Part shown: piece after piece, positions 32,833 through 64,000 of the stretch | Numbering within the stretch: position 1 is the first letter of the stretch | Layout: each line of letters begins with the position of its first letter | DNA from: Candidatus Firestoneibacteriota bacterium | GTDB taxonomy: Bacteria; Oederibacteriota; D2-FULL-39-29 | DNA length: 64,000 nt | Assembly (NCBI GenBank): GCA_903891415.1 | Contig: CAITEH010000012.1 | Coordinates: 1,136-65,135 of the forward strand | Reading direction: 5' to 3' | Position numbers and translations under genes: made by a program | Notes under the pieces: model-generated | What the model was told of the DNA's origin: nothing | Databases searched by the model: none | The model's input: the letters and a program-made list of their open reading frames with translations, nothing else

Positions 32833-33022
32833 CCCACCACAAAGCGTTGGTGGGTTTCACTACCGTTCAACCCACCACAGAGCGTTGGTGGGTTTCACTA
32901 TCGCTCAATCCACCACAAAGCGTTGGTGGATTTCACTGCTGTTCAATCCGCCACAAAGCGTTGGTGGATTTCACTGCTGTTCAACCCGCCACAGAGCTTT
33001 GGTGGATTTCGCTGCCGCTCAA
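32833..33022. repeat. Five head-to-tail 38-bp repeats, each a 7-bp-stem hairpin (REP-like tandem array)
   Basis: The units are 32833-32870, 32871-32908, 32909-32946, 32947-32984 and 32985-33022. The consensus is YCCRCCACARAGCGTTGGTGGRTTTCACTRCYGYTCAA with stem CCCACCA/TGGTGGG. There are no spacers between units. Confidence 0.9.
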
Positions 33023-33039
33023 CTTCCGAGATAAGGGAA

Positions 33040-51170: not shown

Positions 51171-52278
51171 TGCCGCCTGCTTCACTGCCGCCAAAACAAT
51201 AGATCAACCCGCTGCTGTTGCCTGCCACCATTTTTCCGTCTGAGACCGCGGTGGAACCCGAAACAGGACTGCCCGTGTCAAATTCAAATATCTTTTTACC
51301 CGTATCCAGGGCCGCGCCGTAAAGTTTACCGTCCTCGCTTCCAAAAAAAACGTTCTCACCCGCGATAACAGGGGAAGATTCTATTTTACCGCCCGCGGTA
51401 AAGGCCCATTTAAGCCGGCCGGTTACAGGTTCCAGGCACCGGAGAAAATTCCCGTTGGTGCCGAAAACCACGGCGCTGTCATTGACCGCCGGGGAGGAAA
51501 AACATTGTTCATTGTTTTCGTCATAATATTCCCAGAGTATTTTTCTTGAAACGATATCCGCGCAGAAGAATTTTCCCGTAAGAGAGGACACATAGACCCT
51601 GTCCTTATACACCGCCGGGGAGGCGGCAATATTGCTTTCCAGCGGTATCAGGAATTTTTCCAGGCCGGTTGCCAGGTCCACGAACCTGAAGTTACCGTCG
51701 CAGCCCGCCACTACGGCATTATTCCCGCATAAGGCAGGTGACCCGTGAATGGGCGAGTCCAGGGTTAATTTCCATACCGGCCGGCCATCATTCGCGTCAA
51801 GCGCGTAAAGAGTACCGTCGTAACCGCCAAAAATTATTTTGTTGCCGCTGCAGGCCGGAGAAGAAATGAGCTGTTTTTCGGATTCAAACTCCCAGAGTTT
51901 CTTTCCGGTTCCCGCTTCCAGCGCGTAGAACATTCCGAGGTCATCGCCAAAAAAAACTTTTCCGCCGGTTACCAGAGCGGAAGACCTGATCTCCCCTTTC
52001 ACCGGAAACGTCCAGAGTAATTTTCCCGTGCCGGGGTCGAGACAGATGAATTTATCCGTACAGCCGATATAGGCACCCGTCTTCGTAAGCGCGGGCGTGG
52101 AATAGACGGTTTTTTTCGCGTCATAAGTCCATTTAATTTTCAGATCTTTCGGGAGCTTTGAGGCCGCAACACCTGTCGCAGCAGGATCACCACGGAATTG
52201 GAGCCATTCGGCGGATAAACCGGCAGTTAAAATCACTAAAAGTAGCGCTGTATTTGCAATTCTACTTCTTATCTTCAT
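51157..52278 (-). CDS. Secreted BamB-like PQQ beta-propeller repeat protein
   Basis: 373 aa with a signal peptide and regular blades (FICLDPGTGKLLW, FYALEAGTGKKLW, LYALDANDGRPVW, FLRCLEPVTGRLKW, LYGAALDTGKKIF). Confidence 0.88.
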   Translation of the reverse strand: MKIRSRIANTALLLVILTAGLSAEWLQFRGDPAATGVAASKLPKDLKIKWTYDAKKTVYSTPALTKTGAYIGCTDKFICLDPGTGKLLWTFPVKGEIRSSALVTGGKVFFGDDLGMFYALEAGTGKKLWEFESEKQLISSPACSGNKIIFGGYDGTLYALDANDGRPVWKLTLDSPIHGSPALCGNNAVVAGCDGNFRFVDLATGLEKFLIPLESNIAASPAVYKDRVYVSSLTGKFFCADIVSRKILWEYYDENNEQCFSSPAVNDSAVVFGTNGNFLRCLEPVTGRLKWAFTAGGKIESSPVIAGENVFFGSEDGKLYGAALDTGKKIFEFDTGSPVSGSTAVSDGKMVAGNSSGLIYCFGGSEAGGNEKH

Positions 52279-52297
52279 AGGGCACCCGGAAAAATAT

Positions 52298-52376
52298 GTC
52301 TGTAAAGTCCATAAAGTCTATAAAGTCTAAAAGTCCATAAGGTCCGTAAAGTCTATAAGGTCTCAAAGTCTGTAAG
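52298..52376 (+). repeat. Array of about 9 units of the 9-bp GTCYRTAAR repeat family
   Basis: The array reads GTCTGTAAA GTCCATAAA GTCTATAAA GTCTAAAA GTCCATAAG GTCCGTAAA GTCTATAAG GTCTCAAA GTCTGTAAG. It begins 20 nt from the start codon at 52278. Confidence 0.88.
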
Positions 52377-52456
52377 GGCCTTTATGGGCGCAATAAATTA
52401 TACAAATTAAACACTGCTAATACAATGTTAATAAAATGCTTATTGTTTCTTCTTTA

Positions 52457-52843
52457 TCATTTCTTGCTGCCGGAAATTTTATTCAGCAAAAAACCTGCGT
52501 GGGCGGTCAACGCGCCTGCGGTATCGGCCAGCCAATCAAAAATATCCATGCATCTGCCGGGTGTAAATTTCTGGTGAAATTCATCGCTTGCGCCAAAGAG
52601 GGAAGCCAAAAAAACGGCCCGGATAACGGCAGAGCCGGCTTTCAGGGCATGGCCTTTTACCAGCGCGAGATAAATAAGCAGGGAAAAAATGAAATACTCC
52701 GCCATATGCCCTATTTTGTCCGCATTTGGCAGAAAATTCAGCAACCTTGCGGCTGCAGGGTCAGGATCTTCGGACATGGAAAAAATAATAACGGCCCAGA
52801 TCACCGCCGGCAGCCAGTAGAGATAGTTTTTCTTTTTCATCAT
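52457..52843 (-). CDS. VanZ-family membrane protein
   Basis: 128 aa with four hydrophobic helices. KIGHMAEYFIFSLL and SDEFHQKFTPGRCMDIFDWLADTAGAL are VanZ-like motifs. Confidence 0.85.
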   Translation of the reverse strand: MMKKKNYLYWLPAVIWAVIIFSMSEDPDPAAARLLNFLPNADKIGHMAEYFIFSLLIYLALVKGHALKAGSAVIRAVFLASLFGASDEFHQKFTPGRCMDIFDWLADTAGALTAHAGFLLNKISGSKK

Positions 52844-54675
52844 TTCAGCTCGAGTACTTCTTTGTCCTTAATGCCGATAATGTGCAGGTCTTTCTTTAAA
52901 AAGGTACCGTCATAAGTTATATCCCCGGTAACCAGGCCTGCCGTGGAAATATTATTTACCGCGGTTTTCACGGCTTCCTTACTGCAGGCACCGCCGGCTA
53001 TGGCCTGCAAAAAAATACGGGCAGTGTCATAAGCAGCCGCGGAAAAATAATCCGGCACTTCAAAATAAACGCTCTTGTATGCCCTGACAAAATCAGCCGC
53101 ACCTGGAAGGTTGCTTGCCGCGTTAAACTCCGCGGTAAAATAAAGTTCCCCTTCGTTCTGCCTGACACTGGCAATGAATTTTTTATCATTCAACCTGCTA
53201 TTTCCCAGGTAGGGCACTTTGAGCTCAAAAAATACCAGGTGAGACAGTAAACTCTCCGCGTCATAGGCGCTTACCGGCAGGTAAACCGCTTCCAGCCCGT
53301 AGGTATTGGTAACAAGTTTATCAGAGGCCGTAAAATCAAAAAGAACTTCGGCGGAACTTTTTCTGTCCAGATCTTCCACGGTCACCCTGCAATTATAGCT
53401 TAAAGGATTTTTTTCGCTTACCGCTCCTGAAATAATTATCCCCGCGCCGAATTTTTTGGCCAGGCCCGCTTTATCAAAGCCTTTCTTTTTCACGAACTCT
53501 TTTACTTCCGCGAGCTTGGAAAGCCGGGTATCCTTGAACTTACCCAGGCCATAGCTTATTTTTTCGGAGATCAGCCGGCCAAAATCAAAATCATCAGCCA
53601 GGAGCTCGTTCTCCCGGCCGGTATTCGTGAAAGCCAGCAAAACTATATTATTGCGTTTCTTCTCGGTTGCTTCGGGCAGAAGGGCCCGGACCTGGAGAAC
53701 CAGCTTGTCTATGATACTTTCCAGGTTGGACTTATCAGCCGCTATGGTGTCCTTAATTACATGCGGGTCAATTCCGCCCAGGTTCACCATTTGCTCCTTA
53801 AAATCATAGGAACCTTCTTCGAAGGCCTCTTCCCGCACCACCTCTCCGCCAAGCTTGAGCATTTCTTCCTTAAAGGCCGCGGCGCAGGCGGTGCCATAAA
53901 CATTATTTTTCGGATAGATGACCGCCGTTTTTTTCTTTTTAAGGACGTTTACCGTGAATTCCGCGATATTGCGGCCTTCGTCCTCGGGAAACACGGCAGC
54001 GGCGTAAAAATACTGCGCGTCTTTAATTTTATTACTGCCGGAGGCGAGAGGCGAAATAGTCGGAACGGCGTAAATTCCGGCAAGTTTTGCCAGATTTACG
54101 GCGGAAGTTTTTGGCCCCGGCCCGATGATCCCGACCATTTTTTCATCTGAAGCCGCTTCTTTATAAAATTCCTCTATGGGTGTTTCGGGAGCGCCCCAGG
54201 GTGCCAGGTTCTTAAGCAGTTCTTTGCTTTCCGAGTCGTTATAGACAGTTGAAATATCTGTTTTATTTTCCTTATTGTAGAGCCTGACCGCCAGGTCTAT
54301 CCCTTTTTTTGCTTTTTTTCCATAATCGGCCAGCTCACCCGAAAGAGGCAAGACCACACCGAGTTTTAAGGAGACGCAGCTCGCGCCGGTACTGGTTTCT
54401 TTGACTGCCTGTACCGGGGGCAAAACTGTAGTTTCTGCCGTCACCGGTATACTCTCTTCTTTCGCCTGCCCGCTATTTACCGTAACGGTACTTCCCGAAA
54501 CACTTTCCGCCCCGGGTTGTCCGGTTTCGGCCCCGGCAGGAACGGGAGAAACGGAGATCACGCTGTCAATTTTTTTTTGCCAGTTCTTAAGCACAAGGGT
54601 TTTTTCCGAAGCGCAGGCTGCAAAGAGCGCCGCAAGCAGCAGGACTCCTGATATTTTCAACGGTGTGCTTTTCAT
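52840..54675 (-). CDS. Lipoprotein with type-1 periplasmic-binding (LIVBP/ANF-receptor-like) domain
   Basis: 611 aa with lipobox LLAALFAAC. LKLGVVLPLSGELADYGKKAKKGIDLAV is typical of the Leu/Ile/Val-binding protein fold. It has a long Ser/Thr/Pro linker and an internal insertion. Confidence 0.78.
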   Translation of the reverse strand: MKSTPLKISGVLLLAALFAACASEKTLVLKNWQKKIDSVISVSPVPAGAETGQPGAESVSGSTVTVNSGQAKEESIPVTAETTVLPPVQAVKETSTGASCVSLKLGVVLPLSGELADYGKKAKKGIDLAVRLYNKENKTDISTVYNDSESKELLKNLAPWGAPETPIEEFYKEAASDEKMVGIIGPGPKTSAVNLAKLAGIYAVPTISPLASGSNKIKDAQYFYAAAVFPEDEGRNIAEFTVNVLKKKKTAVIYPKNNVYGTACAAAFKEEMLKLGGEVVREEAFEEGSYDFKEQMVNLGGIDPHVIKDTIAADKSNLESIIDKLVLQVRALLPEATEKKRNNIVLLAFTNTGRENELLADDFDFGRLISEKISYGLGKFKDTRLSKLAEVKEFVKKKGFDKAGLAKKFGAGIIISGAVSEKNPLSYNCRVTVEDLDRKSSAEVLFDFTASDKLVTNTYGLEAVYLPVSAYDAESLLSHLVFFELKVPYLGNSRLNDKKFIASVRQNEGELYFTAEFNAASNLPGAADFVRAYKSVYFEVPDYFSAAAYDTARIFLQAIAGGACSKEAVKTAVNNISTAGLVTGDITYDGTFLKKDLHIIGIKDKEVLELK

Positions 54676-54803
54676 CAGGAATTTTCCGTATTATTTTTTT
54701 TTGTAGCTGCCTCATTTATGAGGCCAAAAACCGCTTGATAAATCAAGCAACTACGATCGGATCCAAAACATATTCCCTTTTTTGGTAATTTTTTTCTTTT
54801 CAT

Positions 54804-56996
54804 TTAAACCTGCCAGTTGATAGCTTCAAAATCTTTTGTAGGCATGACCACCGCTATATTTCCTATAGCCGGCCATTTTTCTATCTCATTCGTTTTTCTG
54901 AGCACGATCAAAGAGATAGACGCAGTTTCGCCTTCCTTGAGCTTGAGTTTTTCAAACGGCACAAGGATCTCCACGATCTTTAAAGCGGCTATTTTTATTC
55001 CTGTTTTGTCCGTAATTTTCCAGTCCTTTTTATCCTCTGTCTGCACGGAAAAAACACAGGCCGGCTCGGAACCGGCACCGGCCAGGTCAAAACCTATCTT
55101 ATAAAACGTTTTATTCAGGATCAAGAATTCAAAGTTAAAATCCCTGTGTTTTTCGGCGGAAAGAGGGCCGGTTAGGTCAATTCTGAGGTAAAGGTTTTCC
55201 CTGTCAAAACCAAAATAGAACGCCTTGATTATCGTCTCAGCCCGGTGAATGGCCGCGCCGGCTTTCATGACTTCAAAGATCCCCGCTTCGCTCCACTCGT
55301 AGAAATTGGATATTTTTCCGTCAATAACCGGTTGTATCAGCCCCCGGACACTGACTTGCGGCGCGACCGCTTTCGTGTCATTCAGGACCGGGGTTAAGAG
55401 ATAAGGCGGCACCGCCCTGCCCGCAAGCTCGTAAATATTTGCCAGGTGCTTCCGGAAAAGCCGGTCAAATTCCTCGTCCTGAACGGAAGAATGATCATCC
55501 CCGTACCACCAGCACCAGTCGCTGCCCTCCGCGATAAGCAATTCTTCCACGATCTTTTCATAGGCCGCGGGGTCTTGCGTTTTAACTGCCTGTTTCCAGG
55601 TATCCATATCCTGCTTTACCCGGTAAAGGTAATCCCAGGCTTTTACATCCTCTTCGTGGCCTATCCAGATATAAAAATCATGATTGATCCAGGATCCCGG
55701 AAAGAGTTTGGGGAGGGTATCTTTTGGCGGGAATTTTTTCAGGTATTCAGAAACCGTGACTGTTTTGATCCTCCGGTCGCAGGAGAGCTTCCGGTACAGG
55801 GTGGTGAAAAAATCCAGGCCGTTATTTTTATAATACTCCCAGGCATTCTCACCGTCAAGAATAACGCTGATCAGGGGATTCTCCGTCCTTGAGGCAGCGG
55901 CAATATCATATATTTTCGCGATAAAATCATCGGCTGCCGGCCCGGCGTCCCACCTGGAATAAATAAAACCTATGGCATCCGCGAGTTCTTTATTACGGAA
56001 GATCATATTCATCTCCGCCCCGTCTTTTTTGGCGATGTAAGGTTTGTACAGGTAATTGTTCTTATGGTCCCGGCTCCCGAGCGACTGCGTGAGGATCTCT
56101 TCGTCCGTGCCCATCCATTTTATCCCGTGCCGGGCGATCAGGGGAAGTATGTCCTCGCTGACACCCCCTTCCCCGGGCCACATGCCTTCCGGTTTCACTC
56201 CGAACTTCTTCTCATGGAATTCAACAGCCCGGCGCACCTGCTCTTCCGCGTCTTCCGGCGCCGAAAATTTAAAATTCATATTAAGTTTCGGGAGGGAAAC
56301 CCTGGCGATGGAACTGTCATAGATAAGCGGAAGTATCGGATGGTAGAACGGCGTTGTAGTGAGCTCTATCTGCCCTCTCTCCATGACCTCTTTATACTTG
56401 GGTATTATCCGGGCCATCAATTCCTTCTGCGCGGCCATTACGGCCTGTTTATCCGCCTCGGTGAATTTTCTTCCTTTTGTTTTAAGTGCTTGAATTTCAG
56501 GGCTTTTTGCCGCGGTCAGCGGATCTATCCAGGAAAGGTTGAACCAGACCTGCAGGTCAAGATAATCCTGCGTGTCAAATTTCCCCGCGAGTTCCGGAAG
56601 TTCTTTCTGGGAGATAAAATACCCCCGCCTGGCAAGAAGTTCGTGGTACCGGGGATACGGCTTGATCATATTATCCCAGTTCGACATGAAAAATTTCCAG
56701 AGAATGGCCGTCTTATCTTCCAGCTTGAGGTCGCACGCCTTTTTTTCCGTCAATTCCATAAGGTTATCAGAGGCATTATTAAAGACATAATCTTCTATCT
56801 GGGCAAGCAAAGAAGGGACCAAGTTAAAAGTCTGTTTGATAGCCGGGAAGCCGTCGAGTAATTCGGCCATATAATGATAATCTTTTATGCCATGCAGGCG
56901 TACCCAGGGCATTTCATATTTACCGGTTGCCAGGTCTTTATAGTAAGGCTGGTGCATGTGCCAGACGAAAGCTATGTAAATACTGTTATCGCCCAT
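54804..56996 (-). CDS. Glycoside hydrolase family 57 (alpha-glucan-active)
   Basis: 730 aa. The N-terminal IAFVWHMHQPYY plus GQIELTTTPFYHPILPL, WPGEGGVS and DGENAWEYY match the conserved GH57 regions. Confidence 0.9.
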   Translation of the reverse strand: MGDNSIYIAFVWHMHQPYYKDLATGKYEMPWVRLHGIKDYHYMAELLDGFPAIKQTFNLVPSLLAQIEDYVFNNASDNLMELTEKKACDLKLEDKTAILWKFFMSNWDNMIKPYPRYHELLARRGYFISQKELPELAGKFDTQDYLDLQVWFNLSWIDPLTAAKSPEIQALKTKGRKFTEADKQAVMAAQKELMARIIPKYKEVMERGQIELTTTPFYHPILPLIYDSSIARVSLPKLNMNFKFSAPEDAEEQVRRAVEFHEKKFGVKPEGMWPGEGGVSEDILPLIARHGIKWMGTDEEILTQSLGSRDHKNNYLYKPYIAKKDGAEMNMIFRNKELADAIGFIYSRWDAGPAADDFIAKIYDIAAASRTENPLISVILDGENAWEYYKNNGLDFFTTLYRKLSCDRRIKTVTVSEYLKKFPPKDTLPKLFPGSWINHDFYIWIGHEEDVKAWDYLYRVKQDMDTWKQAVKTQDPAAYEKIVEELLIAEGSDWCWWYGDDHSSVQDEEFDRLFRKHLANIYELAGRAVPPYLLTPVLNDTKAVAPQVSVRGLIQPVIDGKISNFYEWSEAGIFEVMKAGAAIHRAETIIKAFYFGFDRENLYLRIDLTGPLSAEKHRDFNFEFLILNKTFYKIGFDLAGAGSEPACVFSVQTEDKKDWKITDKTGIKIAALKIVEILVPFEKLKLKEGETASISLIVLRKTNEIEKWPAIGNIAVVMPTKDFEAINWQV

Positions 56997-57005
56997 TGCT
57001 CTGGA

Positions 57006-57671
57006 TTACCTGCCAAGGTTCTGTTTTGCGGTATCCACCCACTGTGAATTCGGGTAATTGTTCAGGAGTTCCTCATACCGCACCCGGGCTTCTTCGGTTT
57101 TTCCGGAAAGCCTCAGGCATCTTGCGGCGTTTATCAGCAGCTCATCGCGGCCGTAGTAATTCGGGAATTTTTTAAGCGCTTCTTCAAAGGCCGCCGCGGC
57201 TTTTGGCAGGTCTTTCTGCGCTTCATAAGCGTAACCCAGCGAAGAATAGACCAGGGGCTTCATCAGCTCGGGTAGATATTTTTTCCTGGCCGCCTCAAAA
57301 GCTTTTTCGGCTTCCGGATACTTGCCCAGCTTGTAGTAAGCTTCACCGAGATAGTACAGCGCCTGTCCGGAATATTTTGTATTGGGATAATCTTTATTTA
57401 TATCATTTAATAAAGGTATGACACCTTCGTAGTCCCCGTTCATATACTTATACTCGGCCGGCCCGAGTTTATTCTTAACGGTATTTTCCTTATTGACCTG
57501 GCAGTTACGGAACATAAAGAGCGCCACGACGGCAATTACCGCGTAGAACAGGATATCCAGCCATTTTTTGGTGTTGGCCGGGTTCTTAAAATATTCAACA
57601 ATTTTTGCCGTGAAGGATACGAGCTCATCCTCATGCATGGACTTTTTAAACTGTTCTTTTTCTTTTTTCAT
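57006..57671 (-). CDS. Membrane-anchored TPR protein (YfgM/YbgF-like)
   Basis: 221 aa with one TM helix (ILFYAVIAVVALFMF) followed by TPR repeats (GQALYYLGEAYYKLGKYPEAEKAFEAA). Confidence 0.72.
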   Translation of the reverse strand: MKKEKEQFKKSMHEDELVSFTAKIVEYFKNPANTKKWLDILFYAVIAVVALFMFRNCQVNKENTVKNKLGPAEYKYMNGDYEGVIPLLNDINKDYPNTKYSGQALYYLGEAYYKLGKYPEAEKAFEAARKKYLPELMKPLVYSSLGYAYEAQKDLPKAAAAFEEALKKFPNYYGRDELLINAARCLRLSGKTEEARVRYEELLNNYPNSQWVDTAKQNLGR

Positions 57672-58327: not shown

Positions 58328-58462
58328 AATTCACCTCGTGAATTATTTCACAGTTCTTAAAGTTTGTAATGTAAAATCTCGTATACTATTAAATTAATGC
58401 TCTTACTTTATAAACGTTACAAACCTTAAAAACGTTATGGACTCATTTTACCTTCGGTAAAA

Positions 58463-58481
58463 TGGCGGGCCCGGGCGGAAT
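58463..58481 (-). repeat. 19-nt copy of the 3' end (T-loop to CCA) of the adjacent tRNA-Arg
   Basis: TGGCGGGCCCGGGCGGAAT matches TGGTGGGCCCGGGCGGAAT at 58625-58643 at 18 of 19 positions. It is in the same orientation, 162 bp downstream in the tRNA direction. Confidence 0.8.
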
Positions 58482-58624: not shown

Positions 58625-58701
58625 TGGTGGGCCCGGGCGGAATCGAACCGCCAGCGCGCGGTTTAGGAAACCACTGCTATATCCAATTTAGCTACGGGCC
58701 C
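58625..58701 (-). tRNA. tRNA-Arg (anticodon CCT), CCA encoded
   Basis: The reverse complement folds by hand as acceptor GGGCCCG/CGGGCCC, D arm GCTA-AATTGGATA-TAGC, anticodon arm GTGGT-TTCCTAA-ACCGC (CCT), variable GCGCT, T arm GGCGG-TTCGATT-CCGCC, and A-CCA. Confidence 0.9.
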
Positions 58702-58728: not shown

Positions 58729-59814
58729 TTAGTCGTTTTTACTGTTACCGTTTGTGACTGCCAGTGTGACCGGTATCATGGCACTGCTCAACTTTTCTAT
58801 AGCCCTTGCCTTATGCGGCTGGCTCAAATGAGCATACCTCATTGTCGTGGCTATGTCTCGGTGCCCAAGTATTTCTCTTACAGTAGCCAGATCACAACCA
58901 CTCATTACCAGATAACTCGCTGCCGTATGTCTAAGATCGTGAGGATGCAAATCTTTAATCTTCGCCCGCTTGCACGCTGTTTTAAAGGGCCCTCGAATTG
59001 TCTTTATTTTTCCACCAGATTTATTAGGAAAAACATAGCAATCATCAATCTTTTCAATGCCTATCGTATCATTTTCAAGCATTATTTTCAATGTTGAATT
59101 CAAAGGTATTTGCCTGCCATAACCACTCTTCGAGTGCCTAATATAAATAAGGTTGTTCCTGAAGTCAATATCTCCCCATGTCAAATCCAAGGCTTCTGAC
59201 ACACGGGCTCCGGTAAATATCAGGAAGGTTATAATCCTTTTAAGACACTCAGAACTAGAATTAAACAAGCCCTGTATTTCAGCTTGGGTCATGAATCTCT
59301 TCCTTTCATTATTCTCTTTATAAAGGGCAATACCCTCAACCGGATTAACTCCGTTAAACTTCTTCCAAGCTATTGCTTTATTGTAAATTGCCTTTAAGCA
59401 AGCAATCTCTCTATTCAATGTAGCCGGTTTCATCTCCCTTTTATGATCGTTAATAAACTTCAGCTTCCTGTTAGTTCTGTAATCCTCTATATCTTCTGAG
59501 CTGATTTCATCAATGTTCTTATTCTTAAAAAACGCCTTTAAATGCTCAATAAGCTCGGAGTCTCGATGATGAGATCTTTTCGTAGCTAGGCTATGTTTCT
59601 TATAAAATAATTCCGCCATATCATTGAAAGAAATCTTGTTGTCTTCTTTCAAATCAAGCCATTTCTTTTGAATTACATCAAGTTTTCTTTTCTTAAGTAT
59701 GTTCTGAACGGCCCTCCTAGTTATGACATCCACAGCTCCTATAGACTCTCTTATTCTTTTCGTTCCCTTATAATAATCAATCCACCATTTTCCTTCTCTT
59801 TTGTAAACACTCAT
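58729..59814 (-). CDS. Tyrosine recombinase / phage-type integrase
   Basis: 361 aa with an N-terminal SAM-like domain. The catalytic region is GARVSEALDLTWGDI ... HPHDLRHTAASYLVMSG ... LGHRDIATTMRYAH (R..HxxR..Y). Confidence 0.92.
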   Translation of the reverse strand: MSVYKREGKWWIDYYKGTKRIRESIGAVDVITRRAVQNILKKRKLDVIQKKWLDLKEDNKISFNDMAELFYKKHSLATKRSHHRDSELIEHLKAFFKNKNIDEISSEDIEDYRTNRKLKFINDHKREMKPATLNREIACLKAIYNKAIAWKKFNGVNPVEGIALYKENNERKRFMTQAEIQGLFNSSSECLKRIITFLIFTGARVSEALDLTWGDIDFRNNLIYIRHSKSGYGRQIPLNSTLKIMLENDTIGIEKIDDCYVFPNKSGGKIKTIRGPFKTACKRAKIKDLHPHDLRHTAASYLVMSGCDLATVREILGHRDIATTMRYAHLSQPHKARAIEKLSSAMIPVTLAVTNGNSKND

Positions 59815-59845: not shown

Positions 59846-60034
59846 TTAAATTTCAGGTATATGCTGTTTAGATTGCAGCCACTTTTCCAACATCGGAATA
59901 GAAAAGCGAACATGCCCGCCAATTTTGAAATATGGTATCTTCCCGGAGGAGACATAATTATAAAGAGTCCCCACAGGAATACTTAACAACTCTGATACTT
60001 CTTTTATTGTTAAATACTTTTTTAAGCTTTCCAT
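59846..60034 (-). CDS. Excisionase-family / MerR-like HTH DNA-binding protein
   Basis: 62 aa. LTIKEVSELLSIPVGTLYNYVSSGKIPYFKIGGHVRFSIPMLEKWL is the helix_turn_helix_17/excisionase pattern. Confidence 0.8.
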   Translation of the reverse strand: MESLKKYLTIKEVSELLSIPVGTLYNYVSSGKIPYFKIGGHVRFSIPMLEKWLQSKQHIPEI

Positions 60035-60171: not shown

Positions 60172-61155
60172 TTAAACTTTTGCCGTCTTTCTAACTGGGC
60201 AAATTTCAGAATTGCAATATTCTTTCATATAATCAGAATTACATCCCAAACCCTTGTATCCAGCCTTATACGCCGACTCTACTTTTTTAATGATTGCAGT
60301 ATTATCCAAAGGCGGTTTGTTCTTTTTATTCCAGCTTTCAATAATTGACTGTGTGATGTCAACCGGTAATCCACATTTCTTAAAATACACGGCAATCCTA
60401 AAGCAGATGTTATCGCGGTTTCCTTCAGATACACCCGTTTCAAGAATTCGTTTCATACATGGCAGGCCATTGCTATCATCTCCGTTAGCAGTTCCACTCT
60501 GGAAATCAAGATCTTGCTCTAATAAATAGCAATATTCTTTCAAAATATCATCCACCTGATCTTTGTCTATCTTTTGAATACCAGAGAGATATTCCTTCCA
60601 ATTTTCTACATCCAAAAACTTTTGATCGATAAAATATGATCTTTTACCAGACACCTTATGAACGCCTAATGGCAATTTCATCAGACTCCCAACCCCGTTT
60701 CCCGCAATTCTGTTTTGTTTAGGAAATATTTCAATATCCCTTTCAAACTCACTCAAAGCGACAATAATCTTCCCTATATTTCGGGCTTTAACGGCCTCGA
60801 TTGGCTCAGCATAAAACATCCAAACGTGATATCCCTTATTGCCTGAAAATTCAAATATTGCCTGCTGTTCACTCAATCCTATTTTAGATATTGCATCTTT
60901 TACTTTTTGCATAAATGAGATATCTTTAACGTCAATATCTATTACTGTGTTCCAAGATCTATTATCCCGTGGATTGATAAGATATATGCCATAGCTCTTC
61001 TTTCCATTTAAATGGTCACATAAATCCGTATCCATCATCTCCCTTTTAACCGGGTAATACGAGCCTTTACAACTTTGTTCCGCAAAAACATCCGTTCTTC
61101 CCTTAAAATAACTTTTATAAATACCAATTTCATTGTTAATAGTCATATGAATCAC
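60172..61155 (-). CDS. Archaeo-eukaryotic-primase (AEP) superfamily primase-polymerase with PriCT-like C-terminal domain
   Basis: 327 aa. It has YFKGRTDVFAEQ, the DxD motif VIDIDVKD, and SGNKGYHVWMFY (AEP motif II). The C-terminal GNRDNICFRIAVYFKKCGLP..ESWNKKN is PriCT-like, and it ends in a Cys-rich tail. Confidence 0.75.
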   Translation of the reverse strand: MIHMTINNEIGIYKSYFKGRTDVFAEQSCKGSYYPVKREMMDTDLCDHLNGKKSYGIYLINPRDNRSWNTVIDIDVKDISFMQKVKDAISKIGLSEQQAIFEFSGNKGYHVWMFYAEPIEAVKARNIGKIIVALSEFERDIEIFPKQNRIAGNGVGSLMKLPLGVHKVSGKRSYFIDQKFLDVENWKEYLSGIQKIDKDQVDDILKEYCYLLEQDLDFQSGTANGDDSNGLPCMKRILETGVSEGNRDNICFRIAVYFKKCGLPVDITQSIIESWNKKNKPPLDNTAIIKKVESAYKAGYKGLGCNSDYMKEYCNSEICPVRKTAKV

Positions 61156-61337
61156 CTCGCTCTTTTTTTATAAAAATAATACGACAACATAATTGAAATC
61201 AAAAATAGCAGTGGAAATCTGAAGAAAATGCTCAAAATAATTATTATGACAGTAAGGTATAGTGCAAACGATATTAGCAAACACAATATTTTTTCTATAT
61301 TATTAAGATTAATTATCATCCGGCCTCCTTCCTGCAT
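61152..61337 (-). CDS. Small two-TM membrane protein (hypothetical)
   Basis: 61 aa with two hydrophobic helices. It overlaps both neighbours (ATGA with the primase start). Support is only from coupling and hydrophobicity. Confidence 0.4.
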   Translation of the reverse strand: MQEGGRMIINLNNIEKILCLLISFALYLTVIIIILSIFFRFPLLFLISIMLSYYFYKKRAR

Positions 61338-61774
61338 TCCTCAAAGAATTTGACTATTTCAGGCTTAAAAATAAATTCGCTTATTGCATATCCGCTATTT
61401 CTCCTTAATACTGATAAGAACCTACTTTTTGCCTTTGAATAATCTCTCAATAAGAAAGAAGCGGCACCGCAGTAAATACATGCTTCTTCAAAATCGTTAC
61501 TTGACACCAAATTGTTAAGTACATAATCCAGTTTACTGATACAAAGTCGATAATCTCCTTCATAGTATGCATTTGTACCCTCACTTAAATATTGATTAGA
61601 CAAGTCATTGGTTATTACTGTCTCCTGTTTTGTTGTTTGATCACTTGTTGTATTACTGCTGCTATAACTGGAAGTATAAGAATATGTATATGGGTCATTT
61701 TTTCTTCCTGGTTTAAAAGTTGAACACCCGAAAATCATTATTAATAAGACAACAACTATTAATATTTTATGCAT
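61316..61774 (-). CDS. Lipoprotein with TPR-like helical domain
   Basis: 152 aa with lipobox LLIMIFGCS, a Ser/Thr/Tyr-rich linker, then EGTNAYYEGDYRLCISKLDYVL...YSKAKSRFLSVL (TPR-like). Confidence 0.6.
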   Translation of the reverse strand: MHKILIVVVLLIMIFGCSTFKPGRKNDPYTYSYTSSYSSSNTTSDQTTKQETVITNDLSNQYLSEGTNAYYEGDYRLCISKLDYVLNNLVSSNDFEEACIYCGAASFLLRDYSKAKSRFLSVLRRNSGYAISEFIFKPEIVKFFEECRKEAG

Positions 61775-61805
61775 ATCTCCTTCTCAATTGCGACTAACTC
61801 GCAAT

Positions 61806-62597
61806 TCACCTTTTTTGGGTGTTTAGATTTATAAATAGTATTTCATCTTTCTTAACATCTACTCTAAGCTCTTTTGCTCCTATTGAAACAAACACCAATT
61901 TAATGTTATTTAGGCCTGTCTGAACTTTTATCTTTTCTTCAGACGGCACATTCATTACATACTCTCCGTTTACAAACAGCTTGGCCCAAGGATATGACTT
62001 AACTACAATATACCCATACTCCTGGTTATGTTTGGGATGGAACGCAAACAAAGCATAGATCAAGGAAATACCAAAAAATGCCAGCAACAGTATTGTTATA
62101 AATCTCTTTCTTACAGATGGTACAGAAAGAATTTGCTGGAACTTGTTAAAAAGAAACTTAAATGCCGAAATTATTATTTTGGCAGTGACAATTGAGAAAT
62201 ATGCCAATTTCTCAAAAAACTTAACCCAAAAACCCAGGAAATCAAAGCTCTTGATCTGTTGGGGTTGTGTCCAATATTTCTGGCGAGCACTGGATCCTTG
62301 CGCATTAGTTTTATTGCCATGTTGATTTGAGTTTTGAGCAGAATTTTTATTCGCCTTATTACTGGAAGCTCTGCCACTCTTATTCTTCAAGGCATTTAAA
62401 ACAACATTATAATCCTCTTTTATCTGCTTCATTCTTTCTGTGCCAATCTCTTTTTCCTTATCATTAGTCGCATATTGCCTAATTAAGTTAAGATTCTTCA
62501 ATTTTAACTTATAAGCTTTTTGGCACTCGACTTCCGTCAAATTCTGCAGTTGTTTAGTTATGCCAAGGTTATTTAGTGCCGATGAAATTCTGTCCAT
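61806..62597 (-). CDS. Membrane protein: degenerate J-domain-like N-terminus (no HPD), TM helices, C-terminal PEGA-like domain
   Basis: 263 aa. ALNNLGITKQLQNLTEVECQKAYKLKLKNL....KEKEIGTERMKQIKEDYNVVLNAL aligns by eye with J-domain helices I-III but has NLIRQY where HPD should be. An Asn/Gln/Ser linker and hydrophobic helices follow. The C-terminus GYIVVKSYPWAKLFVNGEYVMNVPSEEKIKVQTGLNNIKLVF is PEGA-like. Confidence 0.55.
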   Translation of the reverse strand: MDRISSALNNLGITKQLQNLTEVECQKAYKLKLKNLNLIRQYATNDKEKEIGTERMKQIKEDYNVVLNALKNKSGRASSNKANKNSAQNSNQHGNKTNAQGSSARQKYWTQPQQIKSFDFLGFWVKFFEKLAYFSIVTAKIIISAFKFLFNKFQQILSVPSVRKRFITILLLAFFGISLIYALFAFHPKHNQEYGYIVVKSYPWAKLFVNGEYVMNVPSEEKIKVQTGLNNIKLVFVSIGAKELRVDVKKDEILFINLNTQKR

Positions 62598-62620
62598 ATG
62601 AATAACCTCTCCTGGTGGCT

Positions 62621-63295
62621 TTACTTGGTTATATTAGTAGCAAGGCTCCTAAAATGCTCTACCAACGAGTCCTTGTCTCCTATAAACCTATACTGAATTT
62701 TACCGCCTGCAAATGATGCGATTTTCTTTAAAAGTCTTTCATTTACATCATTTGGACATCCGCCAATTCCAATTATCTGTATTACAATCCCCATGGATTT
62801 AATCACTTCAGAAACCCGGATAGGGTGGCCGCCATGCCCGTCTGTAAGAAGTATAATTCTATTCAAAGCACCAGGCATGGCGTTTTTAAGAAGCAAATCA
62901 AATGCATATTTCAACCCTATGGCAATATCGGTTCCTCCTTTAATTTTCAATCTATCAAGGGAATTCTGCAAAAGTATTAAATTATCTTTTGCAAAAACGA
63001 TATCGTTAACCACTCTGCCAAAATCAGAGAATGCCACTATCCCAACTTTAGCTGAATGATTTATCTTTATTTTTTCCTTGATAAACTCACTCGATGCGAT
63101 TTTAGCAGCGCGAAGCCTGTTTGGCGGATAATCAGCAGTTTCCATGCTTCCTGAGACATCCAAAACCAAAACTATATTCTCCTCGTATTTTGGCTCCCTA
63201 ATATCCGAAGCATGCGATATTTCTTCCGGATTACTTGATTTAGAAATATCTTTATTAGCGCTCTCAAAAAGCATGCCGAGTATTTTTTTTAGCAT
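62621..63295 (-). CDS. Cytoplasmic vWA-domain protein with complete MIDAS
   Basis: 224 aa with no signal peptide. The sequence shows VLVLDVSGSM (DxSxS), KGGTDIAIGL (T) and IILLTDGHGG (D). Its start is 2 nt after the Hsp70 stop. Confidence 0.85.
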   Translation of the reverse strand: MLKKILGMLFESANKDISKSSNPEEISHASDIREPKYEENIVLVLDVSGSMETADYPPNRLRAAKIASSEFIKEKIKINHSAKVGIVAFSDFGRVVNDIVFAKDNLILLQNSLDRLKIKGGTDIAIGLKYAFDLLLKNAMPGALNRIILLTDGHGGHPIRVSEVIKSMGIVIQIIGIGGCPNDVNERLLKKIASFAGGKIQYRFIGDKDSLVEHFRSLATNITK

Positions 63296-63297
63296 GA

Positions 63298-64000
63298 CTA
63301 CTCCTCCTTGACCTGTTTTTTGATTTCCTGGCTCTGATTCTTAATTTCCTCTTGCGACAAGCCTTTGGTATAGTCAAGGTCTCTGCTGACTTTTTTCTTG
63401 GAAATCAGGTCAACCGCCGTAACATGAATAATCCCATTGCGGTCATATTCATAGGTTACTTCTATTCGATCCTTGTCGTTAGGAGCCATTGGCAAATCCT
63501 CTAGTTTAAGTTCACCTATAAGCAAACACTGGGATTCCAAAGCGCCTTCTTCACCTTGCACAACTTTGATAGTTGCTTCTGTTTGACCTGGGTTAGAAAG
63601 GCTGAACCGATCTACCTTATTTGCAGGTAATGTTGAGCCTCGTTTGATCATTACATAGTTTAATAATATTTTTGTCACAGATTCTTGCAATATAACCCCA
63701 AGCGGGTGCCTGATTATGTCGTTAAGCACAACTTTCGGGAGATATAACTCCTTACCTGAAGAATCGATTACATTCTTCCCTGCTTCTTGTGCCAACTGTG
63801 CGGCATAAATAGCTGCCCCCATTGCTACTGCCTGATCCGGCTTAATATCCCCTTTCGGTGTTTTTCCGGATTCACTCTTAAGCATTTTTTTGACCAGAGG
63901 AATTGAAGATGAGCCGCCTGTCAATACAATATCGACTATATCCCCCCACGACATTTTGGCGTGCTCCAGCGCCTTTTTCGTGACAACTATCGTCTGCTCA
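63298..64000 (-). CDS. Hsp70/DnaK-family ATPase, N-terminus beyond window edge
   Basis: The frame is open to base 64000; the M in the track is internal. IVLTGGSSSIPLVKKMLKSESGKTPKGDIKPDQAVAMGAAIYAA is the end of the Hsp70 nucleotide-binding domain. A beta-sandwich substrate-binding-like region follows (ATIKVVQGEE...RIEVTYEYDRNGIIHVTAVD), and the lid is short. Confidence 0.88.
   Translation of the reverse strand, partial: EQTIVVTKKALEHAKMSWGDIVDIVLTGGSSSIPLVKKMLKSESGKTPKGDIKPDQAVAMGAAIYAAQLAQEAGKNVIDSSGKELYLPKVVLNDIIRHPLGVILQESVTKILLNYVMIKRGSTLPANKVDRFSLSNPGQTEATIKVVQGEEGALESQCLLIGELKLEDLPMAPNDKDRIEVTYEYDRNGIIHVTAVDLISKKKVSRDLDYTKGLSQEEIKNQSQEIKKQVKEE

What the first reader, a model, noticed from the sequence alone, without database searches (positions are those of the whole stretch)
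61152..64000. Island cargo: Hsp70 + cytoplasmic vWA + J-like/PEGA membrane protein + TPR lipoprotein + mini-TM protein, a non-canonical chaperone-vWA module
Five co-directional genes have 2-30 nt spacers or overlaps and sit upstream of the replication/integration genes of an integrase island. The Hsp70 is not in a dnaK-grpE-dnaJ context. Its immediate partner is a signal-less vWA protein with a full MIDAS. Next comes a membrane protein whose N-terminus looks like a J-domain that has lost HPD and whose extracytoplasmic end is PEGA-like. The logic (chaperone-type ATPase + vWA partner + membrane components) parallels the MoxR-DUF58-BatA/B operon at 24.6-34 kb in this same window, with Hsp70 replacing the AAA+ ATPase. 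Mobile-element carriage and the ATPase/vWA pairing are typical of conflict or defence-type accessory systems, but I cannot name a characterised one that matches. The upstream part is cut off by the window edge.
Basis: partly seen in the sequence, partly recalled or inferred. Interest (0 to 1): 0.75.

Follow-up and report, generated by a model that had tools for sequence, protein, structure and literature searches.

The report
Mobile-element Hsp70–GrpE–vWA membrane module
A tRNA-linked integrative element in an uncultured (probably Firestonebacteria) genome carries its own stripped-down Hsp70 chaperone set: a nucleotide-exchange factor, a metal-binding vWA partner, a membrane-anchored co-chaperone-like protein and a lipoprotein; the gene set recurs on similar elements in other phyla, where a kinase/phosphatase pair sometimes takes the place of the Hsp70 pair, and no function has been described for it.

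Summary
Five tightly packed minus-strand genes lie at 61152-64000: Hsp70 C-terminus, a signal-less vWA with full MIDAS, a helical-domain/TM/PEGA-like protein, a TPR-like lipoprotein and a mini-TM protein. They run straight into PrimPol, excisionase, integrase and tRNA-Arg in a low-GC island.

One premise is wrong. Identical metagenome contigs show a dedicated, divergent grpE overlapping the start of a 521-aa lid-truncated Hsp70.

The GrpE-Hsp70-vWA core is conserved. 13 loci with an orthologous vWA (32-59% identity) have an Hsp70 immediately upstream. 5 have a Ser/Thr kinase instead, four of them with PP2C, which makes a TerY-P-like triad. The two vWA groups are sister clades. Most loci also carry a HerA-like ATPase upstream and an integrase. 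Hsp70::vWA fusions exist.

Positional equivalents of the third gene are HPD-less J-domain/TM/PEGA proteins. The window's own N-domain is only compatible with a J fold.

Best reading: an Hsp70 nucleotide switch acting with or on a vWA adaptor at the membrane, analogous to MoxR-vWA and TerY-P. A conflict or exclusion role is inferred, and an element life-cycle role is a serious rival. No PADLOC, phage, plasmid or literature match was found. The local copy's HerA gene is cut by an IS3 element.

Verdict: new variant of a known kind.

The parts
63298..64000 (-). 3' part (233 codons) of a 521-aa lid-truncated Hsp70. The gene continues to about 64863 in window-equivalent coordinates. A dedicated grpE (180 aa) follows at about 64853-65395, also outside the window.
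   Evidence: Pfam HSP70 1.3e-36. The full gene and grpE are read from identical contigs L001/L003. NCBIfam DnaK score is 373 against a cut-off of 648. The catalytic residues are conserved, R167 is replaced by G, and the protein ends near DnaK residue 526.
62621..63295 (-). Cytoplasmic stand-alone vWA protein (224 aa) with a complete MIDAS. It belongs to the family whose sister clade forms TerY-P-like triads.
   Evidence: VWA_2 8.7e-19 and VWA 4.1e-15. Family alignments A1/A2 show an invariant DxSxS...T...D motif and an LLTDGHGGxP motif.
61806..62597 (-). 263-aa bitopic membrane protein. It has an N-terminal three-helix domain (J-domain-like, no HPD), a disordered linker, one conserved TM segment (about residues 163-183) and a C-terminal PEGA-like beta domain predicted to lie outside the cytoplasm.
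   Evidence: Only two full-length members exist among 1.84 billion representatives, and residues 190-260 hit PEGA proteins. AF2 gives helices 3-10, 22-41 and 46-75 at pLDDT about 90. Positional equivalents are J-like/TM/PEGA proteins, and their profile hits J-domains. The window protein alone gives inconclusive results.
61316..61774 (-). 152-aa lipoprotein with a short TPR-like domain.
   Evidence: The protein has a signal peptide and a lipobox-like LIMIFGC. Orthologues in L007 (ITAGC) and L019 (MIAGC) have canonical lipoboxes, and the L019 protein hits TPR_2 at 1.6e-05. A weak BamD/YfiO hit at 3e-05 was found.
61152..61337 (-). 61-aa two-segment hydrophobic mini-protein. It overlaps both the lipoprotein gene and the PrimPol start.
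   Evidence: ORF. A 56-aa orthologue occupies the same position in L007.
60172..61155 (-). Primase-polymerase (AEP domain plus PriCT-1), the element's replication gene.
   Evidence: AEP-TOTE 1.9e-37 and PriCT_1 2.2e-07. PADLOC PrimPol 4.8e-37. NCBIfam PrimPol_Msp 176.8 bits against a cut-off of 200. PHROG DNA primase 1.4e-25.
59846..60034 (-). HTH_17 excisionase-like DNA-binding protein.
   Evidence: HTH_17 1.4e-15.
58729..59814 (-). Tyrosine integrase.
   Evidence: Phage_integrase 2.3e-35 and Int_N 5.1e-12.
58625..58701 (-). tRNA-Arg(CCT) next to the integrase. A 19-nt copy of its 3' end lies at 58462-58480.
   Evidence: ARAGORN. The sequence was read. Related elements also abut tRNA genes.

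Best explanation
The region is the downstream two-thirds of a six-gene operon: grpE, Hsp70, vWA, J-like/TM/PEGA, TPR-lipoprotein and mini-TM. The operon encodes a dedicated, non-canonical Hsp70 machine and is carried by a tRNA-associated integrative element that also has PrimPol, Xis and Int, and originally a HerA-like ATPase.

Shown: the Hsp70 keeps every catalytic residue but has lost most of the helical lid and the canonical J-domain contact (R167). It has its own divergent GrpE. Its invariable downstream partner is a cytoplasmic vWA with an intact MIDAS, and in some genomes that vWA is fused to the Hsp70 where the lid would be. The next gene encodes a membrane-anchored protein whose equivalents elsewhere are HPD-less J-domains joined through one TM to an extracytoplasmic PEGA domain. 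In sister elements the GrpE-Hsp70 pair is replaced by a PP2C phosphatase and a Ser/Thr kinase next to the orthologous vWA.

Inferred mechanism: the Hsp70/GrpE ATPase cycle is a nucleotide-driven switch, functionally equivalent to the kinase/phosphatase cycle of TerY-P triads and to MoxR in MoxR-vWA pairs. It loads, releases or remodels the vWA adaptor and whatever the MIDAS site binds. The J-like/TM/PEGA protein tethers this switch to the inner face of the membrane. Together with the periplasmic TPR-lipoprotein, it couples the switch to an envelope signal.

Most likely role, also inferred: a conflict or exclusion function of the element (sensing or blocking incoming phage or other mobile DNA), with the HerA-like ATPase with a wHTH region and a PD-(D/E)xK-like motif as the probable output. 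In this genome that ATPase gene has been cut by an IS3-family insertion, so the local copy may be crippled.
For: - Operon and grpE.
- Hsp70 subfamily: 373 bits against the DnaK cut-off of 648. D8, K70, E171, D194, T199 and D201 are conserved. R167 is G, the VLLLD linker is VVLND, and the protein ends near DnaK residue 526.
- Conserved neighbourhood: Hsp70 lies immediately upstream of the orthologous vWA in the window, L007, L015, L016, L019, L020, L023, L024, L025, L027, L028, L049 and L051. GrpE lies upstream in at least nine of these.
- Fusion proteins: P0016 and P0063 are Hsp70::vWA. In locus L012 the fusion is followed by GrpE, a second Hsp70, a J(no HPD)/TM/PEGA protein, a TPR protein and a lipoprotein, in a chromosomal context.
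- Swap with PP2C plus STK(ZnR, FHA) in L017, L021, L022 and L026, and a kinase in L050. The kinase-linked and Hsp70-linked vWAs are sister clades.
- J-domain homology of the positional equivalents: the profile hits PDB J-domains at 8.7e-10, and at 3.8e-5 when L012, the window and L007 sequences are left out. The gene after the vWA in L051 has a faint Pfam DnaJ hit.
- PEGA.
- HerA-like ATPase family upstream in 13 loci: PDB HerA/DUF87 at 3.2e-14 and PADLOC mad8 at 2e-11.
- Integrases and tRNAs flank the loci.
- Published precedent for alternative HSP70+GrpE+DnaJ/TPR and STK+PP2C+vWA themes, and for PEGA beyond a TM, in predicted membrane-proximal conflict systems: PMC7159879, section 29. TerY-P definition: PMC11090510.
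Against: - No functional data exist, and PADLOC finds nothing for the five genes or grpE.
- The window protein's own N-domain is not detectably a J-domain: profile search, hhalign at 0.25% probability, and Foldseek E >= 0.25.
- HPD and DnaK R167 are both missing, so classical ATPase stimulation is not expected.
- The module is collinear with PrimPol, Int and HerA across phyla and overlaps the PrimPol start. This fits a core element function as well as it fits a defence cargo.
- No recognisable toxin or effector is present in the operon itself.
- The HerA-like gene is truncated here.
- The C-terminal PD-(D/E)xK nuclease assignment rests only on a motif I read in the sequence.
Confidence: 0.45

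Rival explanations
1. Element life-cycle chaperone. The Hsp70/GrpE/J-like set with its vWA adaptor serves the integrative element's own propagation. It could activate or recycle the PrimPol/HerA replication or DNA-translocation machinery, as host DnaK/DnaJ/GrpE do for lambda O-P-DnaB and for P1/F RepA (textbook knowledge). Alternatively it could assemble a membrane-associated DNA-transfer or particle-forming apparatus.
For: - From grpE to PrimPol the genes are contiguous or overlapping. The mini-TM gene overlaps the PrimPol start by 4 nt.
- The order Zn-ribbon protein, HerA-like ATPase, GrpE, Hsp70, vWA, J-like/TM/PEGA, TPR, PrimPol, Int is collinear between the Firestonebacteria-type element L007 and the Planctomycetes element L019.
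- Nearly every locus sits beside an integrase, of either the Tyr or the Ser type.
- The HerA-like ATPase resembles DNA translocases such as CedB/CedD, VirB4 and HerA.
Against: - The same module occurs without an integrase, PrimPol or HerA within 8 kb in a chromosomal context (L012).
- The slot is alternatively filled by a kinase/phosphatase pair, and a replication chaperone would not be expected to be replaced in that way.
- An extracytoplasmic PEGA domain and a lipoprotein are not needed for replication.
- No hits were found in IMG/VR, phage or plasmid collections, and no structural PHROG matched.
Confidence: 0.3
2. Host-beneficial envelope homeostasis module. This would be a Bat-operon-like system (ATPase + vWA + TPR + membrane proteins) that folds, inserts a metal into, or quality-controls an envelope protein, and is merely hitch-hiking on the island.
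For: - The domain logic parallels the MoxR-DUF58-BatA/B-TPR-BatD-TPR operon in the same window.
- The vWA's weak NCBIfam hits include BatA/BatB.
- Related short Hsp70+GrpE pairs occur in stable chromosomal contexts with other partners, such as an FGE-sulfatase-domain protein in Verrucomicrobia.
- MoxR-vWA pairs are often metal-cofactor insertion chaperones (general knowledge).
Against: - The vWA here is cytoplasmic and soluble, unlike the membrane-anchored BatA/B.
- The vWA subfamily is almost always found on integrase-bearing elements and next to a HerA-like ATPase.
- Its sister clade forms TerY-P-like triads.
- No candidate client enzyme is encoded nearby.
Confidence: 0.1
3. Ordinary heat-shock dnaK-grpE locus, or a chance juxtaposition, misread as a special module.
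For: A grpE does lie directly upstream of the Hsp70, and the Hsp70 is about 40% identical to canonical DnaKs.
Against: - The Hsp70 scores far below the DnaK and HscA equivalog cut-offs, most of its lid is absent, and R167 is lost.
- The grpE scores 18-29 bits against cut-offs of 137-348.
- There is no dnaJ.
- The region has low GC and sits between an IS and an integrase.
- The vWA, J-like and TPR neighbours are conserved in more than a dozen loci and as fusions.
Confidence: 0.03

Closest known systems
TerY-P triad (TerY-like vWA + PP2C phosphatase + Ser/Thr kinase with zinc ribbon; Anantharaman, Iyer and Aravind 2012, as described in PMC11090510 and PMC4978471). From my own recollection, it was reported as anti-phage by Gao et al. 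2020.
   Same: - The window's vWA belongs to the same family (32-41% identity, shared MIDAS and LLTDGHGGxP motifs) as vWAs that sit directly after PP2C and STK(ZnR, FHA) genes in sister elements.
- Both have the same three-part logic: a vWA plus a two-enzyme on/off cycle.
- Both are linked to FtsK/HerA-superfamily ATPases and mobile islands.
   Different: - Here the kinase/phosphatase pair is replaced by Hsp70/GrpE.
- A J-like/TM/PEGA protein and a TPR-lipoprotein are added.
- PADLOC shows no hit for the window's vWA or for L019's, and only a spurious weak one for L017's (PtuA, E 0.004). I did not check whether PADLOC holds a TerY-P model.
HSP70 + GrpE + DnaJ/TPR theme of GAP1-N2 GTPase-centric conflict systems (Kaur, Burroughs, Iyer, Aravind 2020, PMC7159879). 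This is a computational prediction only.
   Same: - Both have a dedicated HSP70 with its own GrpE, and J-domain and TPR partner proteins.
- Both are membrane-proximal, with PEGA-type domains beyond a TM.
- An alternative, non-overlapping STK+PP2C+vWA theme surrounds the same core.
- Both occur in Planctomycetes among other phyla.
   Different: - No DO-GTPase, GAP1 or FNIII-repeat protein was found in the window, in L007 or in L019.
- A HerA-like ATPase occupies the neighbouring position.
- The vWA is combined with the Hsp70 theme rather than being exclusive to the kinase theme.
- The J-domains lack HPD.
- The system is carried on integrase elements.
MoxR-vWA chaperone/co-chaperone pairs, including the Bat operon (also present at 24.6-34 kb in this window), RavA-ViaA, CbbQ-CbbO and NorQ-NorD.
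   Same: An ATP-driven remodelling engine is encoded next to a MIDAS-containing vWA adaptor, often with TPR and membrane components.
   Different: - The engine is an actin-fold Hsp70 with a nucleotide-exchange factor, not a hexameric AAA+ ATPase.
- The vWA is soluble and cytoplasmic.
- The system sits on a mobile element.
E. coli HscC with the membrane-anchored J-proteins DjlB/DjlC and the Sel1/TPR-like YbeT (recalled from memory, not tested here).
   Same: A specialised, non-housekeeping Hsp70 is encoded with membrane-anchored J-type partners and a TPR-like protein.
   Different: - As far as I recall, the HscC partners keep HPD, HscC does not use GrpE, and the locus has no vWA.
- No sequence comparison was done.
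CoCoNuT type III systems (CnuD Hsp70-like NBD/SBD plus TerY-like vWA/TerY-P; PMC11090510).
   Same: An Hsp70-like protein and TerY-like vWA domains co-occur in one predicted conflict operon.
   Different: - CoCoNuT Hsp70-like domains have degenerate ATPase motifs and are tied to McrBC GTPase/nuclease cores.
- Here the ATPase residues are intact, a GrpE is present, and there is no McrB/McrC.

Membership tests
Canonical DnaK-DnaJ-GrpE chaperone operon | Hsp70 reaches the DnaK equivalog score | tested here: not met
   The protein scores 373 bits against NF001413 (cut-off 648) and 369 bits against TIGR02350 (cut-off 822). HscA models are also below cut-off.
Canonical DnaK-DnaJ-GrpE chaperone operon | Complete C-terminal helical lid and tail | tested here: not met
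   The protein ends at about DnaK residue 526 of 638.
Canonical DnaK-DnaJ-GrpE chaperone operon | Catalytic ATPase residues present | tested here: met
   D8, K70, E171, D194, T199 and D201 are conserved in all 14 family members aligned.
Canonical DnaK-DnaJ-GrpE chaperone operon | Adjacent GrpE nucleotide-exchange factor | tested here: met
   A 180-aa ORF overlapping the Hsp70 start carries a precomputed PF01025 GrpE hit. Its NCBIfam GrpE hits are weak at 18-29 bits, below cut-off. The gene lies outside the window.
Canonical DnaK-DnaJ-GrpE chaperone operon | J-protein partner with the HPD motif, and the DnaK R167 contact | tested here: not met
   No HPD is present in the window protein or in any positional equivalent. 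R167 is G in the window Hsp70 and varies in relatives.
J-domain protein family | Sequence or fold homology of the N-terminal domain to J-domains | tested here: inconclusive
   - The window+L007 profile finds no J-domain.
- hhalign against the Planctomycete J-like profile gives 0.25% probability.
- Foldseek on AF2 models gives HscB and DNAJB J-domains only at E >= 1.4 (TM-score 0.57-0.62), mixed with MIT and BAG three-helix bundles.
- Positional equivalents do hit J-domains, at 3.8e-5 to 8.7e-10.
PEGA domain (PF08308) | Match to the PEGA profile | tested here: inconclusive
   - The window protein shows no Pfam hit at E <= 0.1.
- The L007 orthologue scores 18.1 bits against a cut-off of 20.8.
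- phmmer with residues 190-260 retrieves multi-PEGA proteins, with the best at 2.1e-18.
- The AF2 model of this region has low confidence.
TerY-P triad | vWA with an intact MIDAS | tested here: met
   The DxSxS...T...D motif is invariant.
TerY-P triad | Adjacent PP2C phosphatase and Ser/Thr kinase with a zinc ribbon | tested here: not met
   Both are absent from the window and from L001/L003. They are present next to orthologous vWAs in L017, L021, L022 and L026.
MoxR-vWA systems | MoxR-type AAA+ ATPase encoded next to the vWA | tested here: not met
   No AAA_3 or MoxR hit is found in the module. The window's MoxR belongs to the separate Bat operon at 33040-34029.
GAP1-N2 GTPase-centric conflict systems (HSP70/GrpE theme) | DO-type GTPase(s), GAP1 and an FNIII-repeat component | tested here: not met
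   Pfam scans of all neighbours in the window, L007 and L019 find no GTPase, GAP1 or FNIII domain. Remote homologues cannot be excluded.
GAP1-N2 GTPase-centric conflict systems (HSP70/GrpE theme) | HSP70 + GrpE with DnaJ- or TPR-bearing partners near the membrane | tested here: met
   
Known anti-phage systems (PADLOC-DB v2) | Any component matching a system model | tested here: not met
   There are no hits for the five window cargo genes or for grpE. The full-length Hsp70 has only a weak hit to candidate PDC-M61B at 1.2e-6.
tRNA-associated integrative island | Tyrosine integrase + excisionase next to a tRNA gene, with deviant GC | tested here: met
   Related elements abut tRNA-Leu, -Arg, -Pro and -Asp genes.
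tRNA-associated integrative island | Flanking att direct repeats, or an empty site in related genomes | tested here: inconclusive
   - A 19-nt tRNA 3'-end copy lies at 58462-58480, on the side away from the island.
- The far end of the island lies beyond an IS.
- No convincing repeats were found in L007 or L019.
- Every contig that extends upstream of the neighbouring PHP gene also carries the integrase.

The most novel reading that the evidence does not exclude
This would be a previously undescribed class of mobile-element conflict system. In it an Hsp70/GrpE ATPase cycle, rather than a MoxR AAA+ ATPase or a kinase/phosphatase pair, gates a MIDAS-vWA adaptor, with the vWA acting in place of the Hsp70 lid. 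The switch is wired through an HPD-less J-domain/TM/PEGA protein and a lipoprotein to events at the cell envelope, such as phage adsorption or DNA entry. It triggers a HerA-type ATPase, possibly nuclease-bearing, to exclude incoming DNA. This would be the first case of an Hsp70 used as an immune or exclusion switch in bacteria.
Probability: 0.3. Interest if true: 0.85.

Novelty: new variant of a known kind. Interest (0 to 1): 0.62.

Why it matters
Hsp70s are normally viewed as general folding machines directed by HPD-containing J-proteins. This family is lid-truncated and has lost the canonical J-contact. It keeps its own exchange factor and is always paired with, or fused to, a metal-dependent vWA adaptor. 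It is interchangeable in evolution with a kinase/phosphatase pair. If the switch model is right, the 'NTPase + vWA' principle known from MoxR systems and TerY-P would extend to the actin-fold Hsp70 family. That would give a tractable model for how an Hsp70 can work without HPD stimulation and with a protein domain in place of its lid. It also defines a cross-phylum family of small integrative elements (HerA-like ATPase, PrimPol, integrase) in poorly studied lineages such as Firestonebacteria and Planctomycetota. Whether the module defends the host, excludes rival elements or drives transfer can be tested directly by heterologous expression.

Tried and rejected
- PADLOC scans of all module proteins found no system.
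- IMG/VR viral contigs scanned with the vWA family alignment gave no relative.
- tblastn of the vWA against 72,556 plasmids and 50,697 phage records gave no match at 1e-8.
- PHROGs returned only generic DnaK and primase families and a weak hit to a Sie-like lipoprotein at 1.8e-4, which covers the signal-peptide region and which I discount.
- Attempts to prove the window protein's J-domain were all non-significant: a two-sequence profile against the PDB, hhalign against the Planctomycete J-like profile, and Foldseek on the full-length and N-terminal AF2 models.
- Extending the contig failed. Every assembly stops about 1.9 kb beyond the window because a multi-copy IS3-family element abuts the island.
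- The search for an empty integration site failed, because all contigs with the neighbouring PHP gene that reach upstream carry the integrase.
- No convincing att repeats were found in L007 or L019.
- The primary TerY-P paper (Anantharaman 2012) is not in the library, so TerY-P features are taken from secondary descriptions.
- Literature searches for Hsp70+vWA+GrpE, HerA, anti-phage or TOTE found no description of this module.
- I considered and rejected the idea that this is the host's housekeeping dnaK locus.

Full report
**Observation**

- Hsp70 C-terminal 233 codons at 63298-63999 (Pfam HSP70 1.3e-36).
- A 224-aa vWA protein at 62621-63295 (VWA_2 8.7e-19, VWA 4.1e-15).
- A 263-aa protein at 61806-62597 with no Pfam family at threshold.
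- A 152-aa lipoprotein at 61316-61774.
- A 61-aa hydrophobic protein at 61152-61337.

Spacers are 2, 23 and 31 nt. A 22-nt overlap follows, and the mini-TM gene overlaps the GTG start of the next gene by 4 nt. That next gene is a primase-polymerase (AEP-TOTE 1.9e-37 plus PriCT_1). It is followed by an HTH_17 excisionase-like gene, a tyrosine integrase (2.3e-35) and tRNA-Arg(CCT) at 58625-58701. GC falls from about 0.47-0.50 in the host genes to 0.32-0.42 across this block. The best-named relatives of a flanking host gene (GH57, 57-72% identity) come from Candidatus Firestonebacteria MAGs.

**What lies beyond the window edge**

An exact-sequence look-up of the vWA protein found 13 metagenome contigs carrying the same locus. 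They show that the Hsp70 is 521 aa long. Its start is overlapped by a 180-aa GrpE (PF01025). Upstream of grpE is a 116-codon ORF that matches only the C-terminal end of a 380-aa protein in a related element. About 130 nt further on, every assembly ends. A DNA scan showed why. The terminus of an IS3-family insertion sequence (OrfA 127 aa, OrfB 329 aa with a DDE-type fold) abuts the island there, and the same IS end is joined to three different flanks in different contigs.

**The Hsp70 and GrpE are not the housekeeping pair**
- The Hsp70 scores 373 bits against the DnaK equivalog model (cut-off 648) and is below cut-off for HscA.
It retains D8, K70, E171, D194, T199 and D201.
- R167, the residue known from the literature to contact the HPD aspartate of DnaJ, is replaced by G.
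- The VLLLD linker is weakened to VVLND, and the substrate arch is altered (M404Q, A429S).
- The protein stops at about DnaK residue 526, so most of the helical lid is absent.
- The GrpE reaches only 18-29 bits against GrpE equivalogs with cut-offs of 137-348.

**Conservation of the neighbourhood**

The closest Hsp70 (74% identity) lies in an element inserted at a different host site, beside tRNA-Leu and ruvCAB. Its gene order is: a sigma54-type AAA regulator; small proteins including a Cys-rich Zn-ribbon protein; a HerA-like ATPase split into 299 and 380 aa; GrpE; Hsp70; vWA; a 265-aa orthologue of the J-like protein; a TPR-lipoprotein; a 56-aa TM protein; PrimPol; a Zn-ribbon protein; Xis; Int.

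A 37%-identical Hsp70 sits in the order ATPase, small protein, GrpE, Hsp70, vWA and three small genes, next to a large serine recombinase.

The vWA defines a tight family with an invariant MIDAS and LLTDGHGGxP, VNExLL and YRFI motifs. I scanned one genome per GTDB species with it and added three further metagenome look-ups. This gave the following counts:
- 13 loci have an Hsp70 immediately upstream of the vWA: the window, L007, L015, L016, L019, L020, L023, L024, L025, L027, L028, L049 and L051.
- At least nine of these have a recognisable GrpE.
- 5 loci have a Ser/Thr kinase in that position: L017, L021, L022, L026 and L050.
- 1 locus is cut by a contig end.

Most of these loci are from Planctomycetota. 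In L017, L021, L022 and L026 the kinase carries a zinc ribbon and an FHA domain and is preceded by a PP2C phosphatase. This is the TerY-P triad architecture as defined in PMC11090510. In a neighbour-joining tree, the kinase-linked and Hsp70-linked vWAs form two sister clades.

Two protein clusters are direct Hsp70::vWA fusions (P0016, P0063). In them the vWA begins where the lid would. In locus L012 the fusion is followed by GrpE, a second Hsp70, a 615-aa DnaJ-domain protein, a TPR protein and a lipoprotein. The context is chromosomal, with no integrase within 8 kb.

**The third gene**

Among 1.84 billion representative proteins, only the window protein and its L007 orthologue are full-length relatives. 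All other hits align to residues about 190-260 and are PEGA-domain proteins. The L007 orthologue just misses the PEGA cut-off, at 18.1 against 20.8 bits.

AF2 predicts a confident N-terminal three-helix domain (helices 3-10, 22-41 and 46-75, pLDDT about 90). After it come a disordered linker, a hydrophobic helix at about 160-185 and a low-confidence beta domain. Only the second hydrophobic segment is conserved in the L007 and L019 equivalents, and it is preceded by RKR. I therefore infer a topology with the N-terminus inside and the PEGA domain outside.

The genes that follow the vWA in L019 and L024 have the same architecture, and those in L020, L023 and L028 lack only the PEGA part. The L012 protein is a Pfam DnaJ domain plus a TM and a PEGA-like C-terminus. 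None of these proteins has HPD; the Planctomycete ones have V/I-P-G-N/Q in that loop. A profile of all eight N-termini hits solved J-domains at 8.7e-10, and the five Planctomycete sequences alone hit them at 3.8e-5. The equivalent gene in L051 has a faint Pfam DnaJ hit.

For the window protein itself the evidence is only positional and architectural:
- Its two-sequence profile finds no J-domain.
- hhalign to the Planctomycete profile gives 0.25% probability.
- Foldseek returns HscB and DNAJB J-domains only at E >= 1.4 (TM-score about 0.6), mixed with MIT and BAG three-helix bundles.

I therefore call it J-like by inference, not by test.

**The fourth and fifth genes**

The lipoprotein has a lipobox-like LIMIFGC, and its orthologues have canonical ITAGC and MIAGC lipoboxes. 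The L019 equivalent hits TPR_2 at 1.6e-05. The mini-TM protein has a 56-aa orthologue in L007.

**The recurrent upstream ATPase**

A family of roughly 600-700-aa proteins occurs in 13 of the loci. Its profile matches solved HerA/DUF87 ATPases at 3.2e-14 and 6.1e-12 and the mad8 ATPase of the MADS defence system at 2e-11. MADS is described in bioRxiv 10.1101/2023.03.30.534895. The family also gives weak hits to CedB/CedD, VirB4 and anti-phage HerA. The protein has a wHTH-like region. From a PD...E-V-E-L-N-K motif I read in the sequence, it may also have a C-terminal PD-(D/E)xK-like domain. That last point is untested.

**Interpretation**

What is shown: a dedicated, catalytically competent but lid-truncated Hsp70 with its own exchange factor. 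It is always paired with, or fused to, a MIDAS-vWA, and is joined to a membrane-anchored J-type protein and a TPR protein. The set is exchangeable in evolution with a kinase/phosphatase pair. It is embedded in HerA-bearing integrative elements that target tRNA genes.

What is inferred: the Hsp70/GrpE cycle acts as a nucleotide switch on the vWA adaptor at the membrane, analogous to MoxR-vWA and TerY-P. It couples an envelope signal, received through PEGA and the lipoprotein, to an output that is probably the HerA-like ATPase.

The closest published parallel is the computationally predicted GAP1-N2 GTPase-centric conflict systems. In those, HSP70+GrpE+DnaJ/TPR and STK+PP2C+vWA are alternative themes, and PEGA domains lie beyond TM segments (PMC7159879 section 29). 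No GTPase, GAP1 or FNIII component was detected here.

A conflict or exclusion role is my preferred reading, at about 0.45. The tight collinearity with PrimPol, Int and HerA from Firestonebacteria to Planctomycetota, and the translational overlap with PrimPol, keep an element life-cycle role (replication, transfer or assembly chaperone) as a strong rival, at about 0.3. A Bat-like envelope-homeostasis role is possible but less likely. An ordinary dnaK locus is excluded.

**Negative results**
- PADLOC has no model for these proteins.
- The vWA family is absent from IMG/VR, from 50,697 phage records and from 72,556 plasmid records at the thresholds used.
- PHROGs gives nothing structural.
- Six literature searches found no description of an Hsp70-GrpE-vWA module (and for TOTE).
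- The primary TerY-P paper was not available.

**Verdict**

This is a real, conserved and so far uncharacterised module. It is best filed as a new variant within the known kinds 'NTPase + vWA' and 'HSP70/GrpE/J/TPR accessory' systems. Its function is unknown experimentally, and the copy in this genome may be partly disabled by the IS insertion.

Noticed in passing
window 58462-58480 (and tRNA-Arg at 58625-58701): A 19-nt near-exact copy of the tRNA-Arg 3' end lies 145 nt downstream of the tRNA, on the side away from the island. In this element and in L007 the island genes sit on the 5' side of the tRNA. In L019, L027 and L028 the tRNA 3' end faces the integrase. The att geometry is unresolved, and the copy may be a scar of an earlier element.
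   Followed up: partly
L001:1-141 and L041 (about 1.77 kb beyond the window end, window-equivalent about 65766): A multi-copy IS3-family insertion sequence (OrfA 127 aa, OrfB 329 aa) abuts the island. It leaves only the last 116 codons of the HerA-like ATPase gene. This explains why every assembly of the locus breaks at the same point.
   Followed up: yes
window 24622-34029 (-): A complete Bat-type aerotolerance operon is present: MoxR (AAA_3), DUF58, two unknown genes of about 320 aa, BatA, BatB, a TPR protein, BatD and a TPR protein.
   Followed up: partly
L010:7135-11173 and L013:6111-10330: Verrucomicrobial relatives of the short Hsp70 (36-37% identity) pair with GrpE and a 534-573-aa FGE-sulfatase-domain protein instead of a vWA. 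The chromosomal context is conserved (heme biosynthesis genes upstream, rpsU downstream). This suggests a wider clade of lid-truncated Hsp70/GrpE pairs, each with a dedicated partner protein.
   Followed up: no
L012:8001-15512: A Pseudomonadota MAG carries, in a chromosomal context, an Hsp70::vWA fusion (665 aa), then GrpE, a second Hsp70 (554 aa), a DnaJ-domain(no HPD)/TM/PEGA-like protein (615 aa), a TPR protein and a lipoprotein. An ATPase_2/DUF234 protein lies downstream.
   Followed up: partly
window 60172-61155: The island's PrimPol is closest to Pfam 'AEP-TOTE' and to the NCBIfam CRISPR-associated PrimPol type A1 (176.8 bits, just under the cut-off of 200). It also resembles the N-terminal AEP domain of DRT UG10 reverse-transcriptase defence proteins in PADLOC.
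   Followed up: no
L020 (2.5-kb contig binned as Candidatus Woesearchaeota): An Hsp70-vWA-J-like/TM locus sits on a very short contig assigned to an archaeal MAG. Either the family reaches DPANN archaea or the contig is mis-binned.
   Followed up: no
L051:1-2775 and L050:15901-16258: Two related elements lie next to conflict-type genes: a 1395-aa protein with a weak NACHT hit beside L051, and a Cas3-like helicase near L050. This is anecdotal support for a defence-island setting.
   Followed up: no
window 51157-57671: The host genes flanking the island are a GH57 glycosidase, a TPR protein, a PHP phosphoesterase, a periplasmic-binding-like lipoprotein and a PQQ-like beta-propeller protein. The best named relatives of the GH57 protein (57-72% identity) are from Candidatus Firestonebacteria MAGs.
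   Followed up: partly
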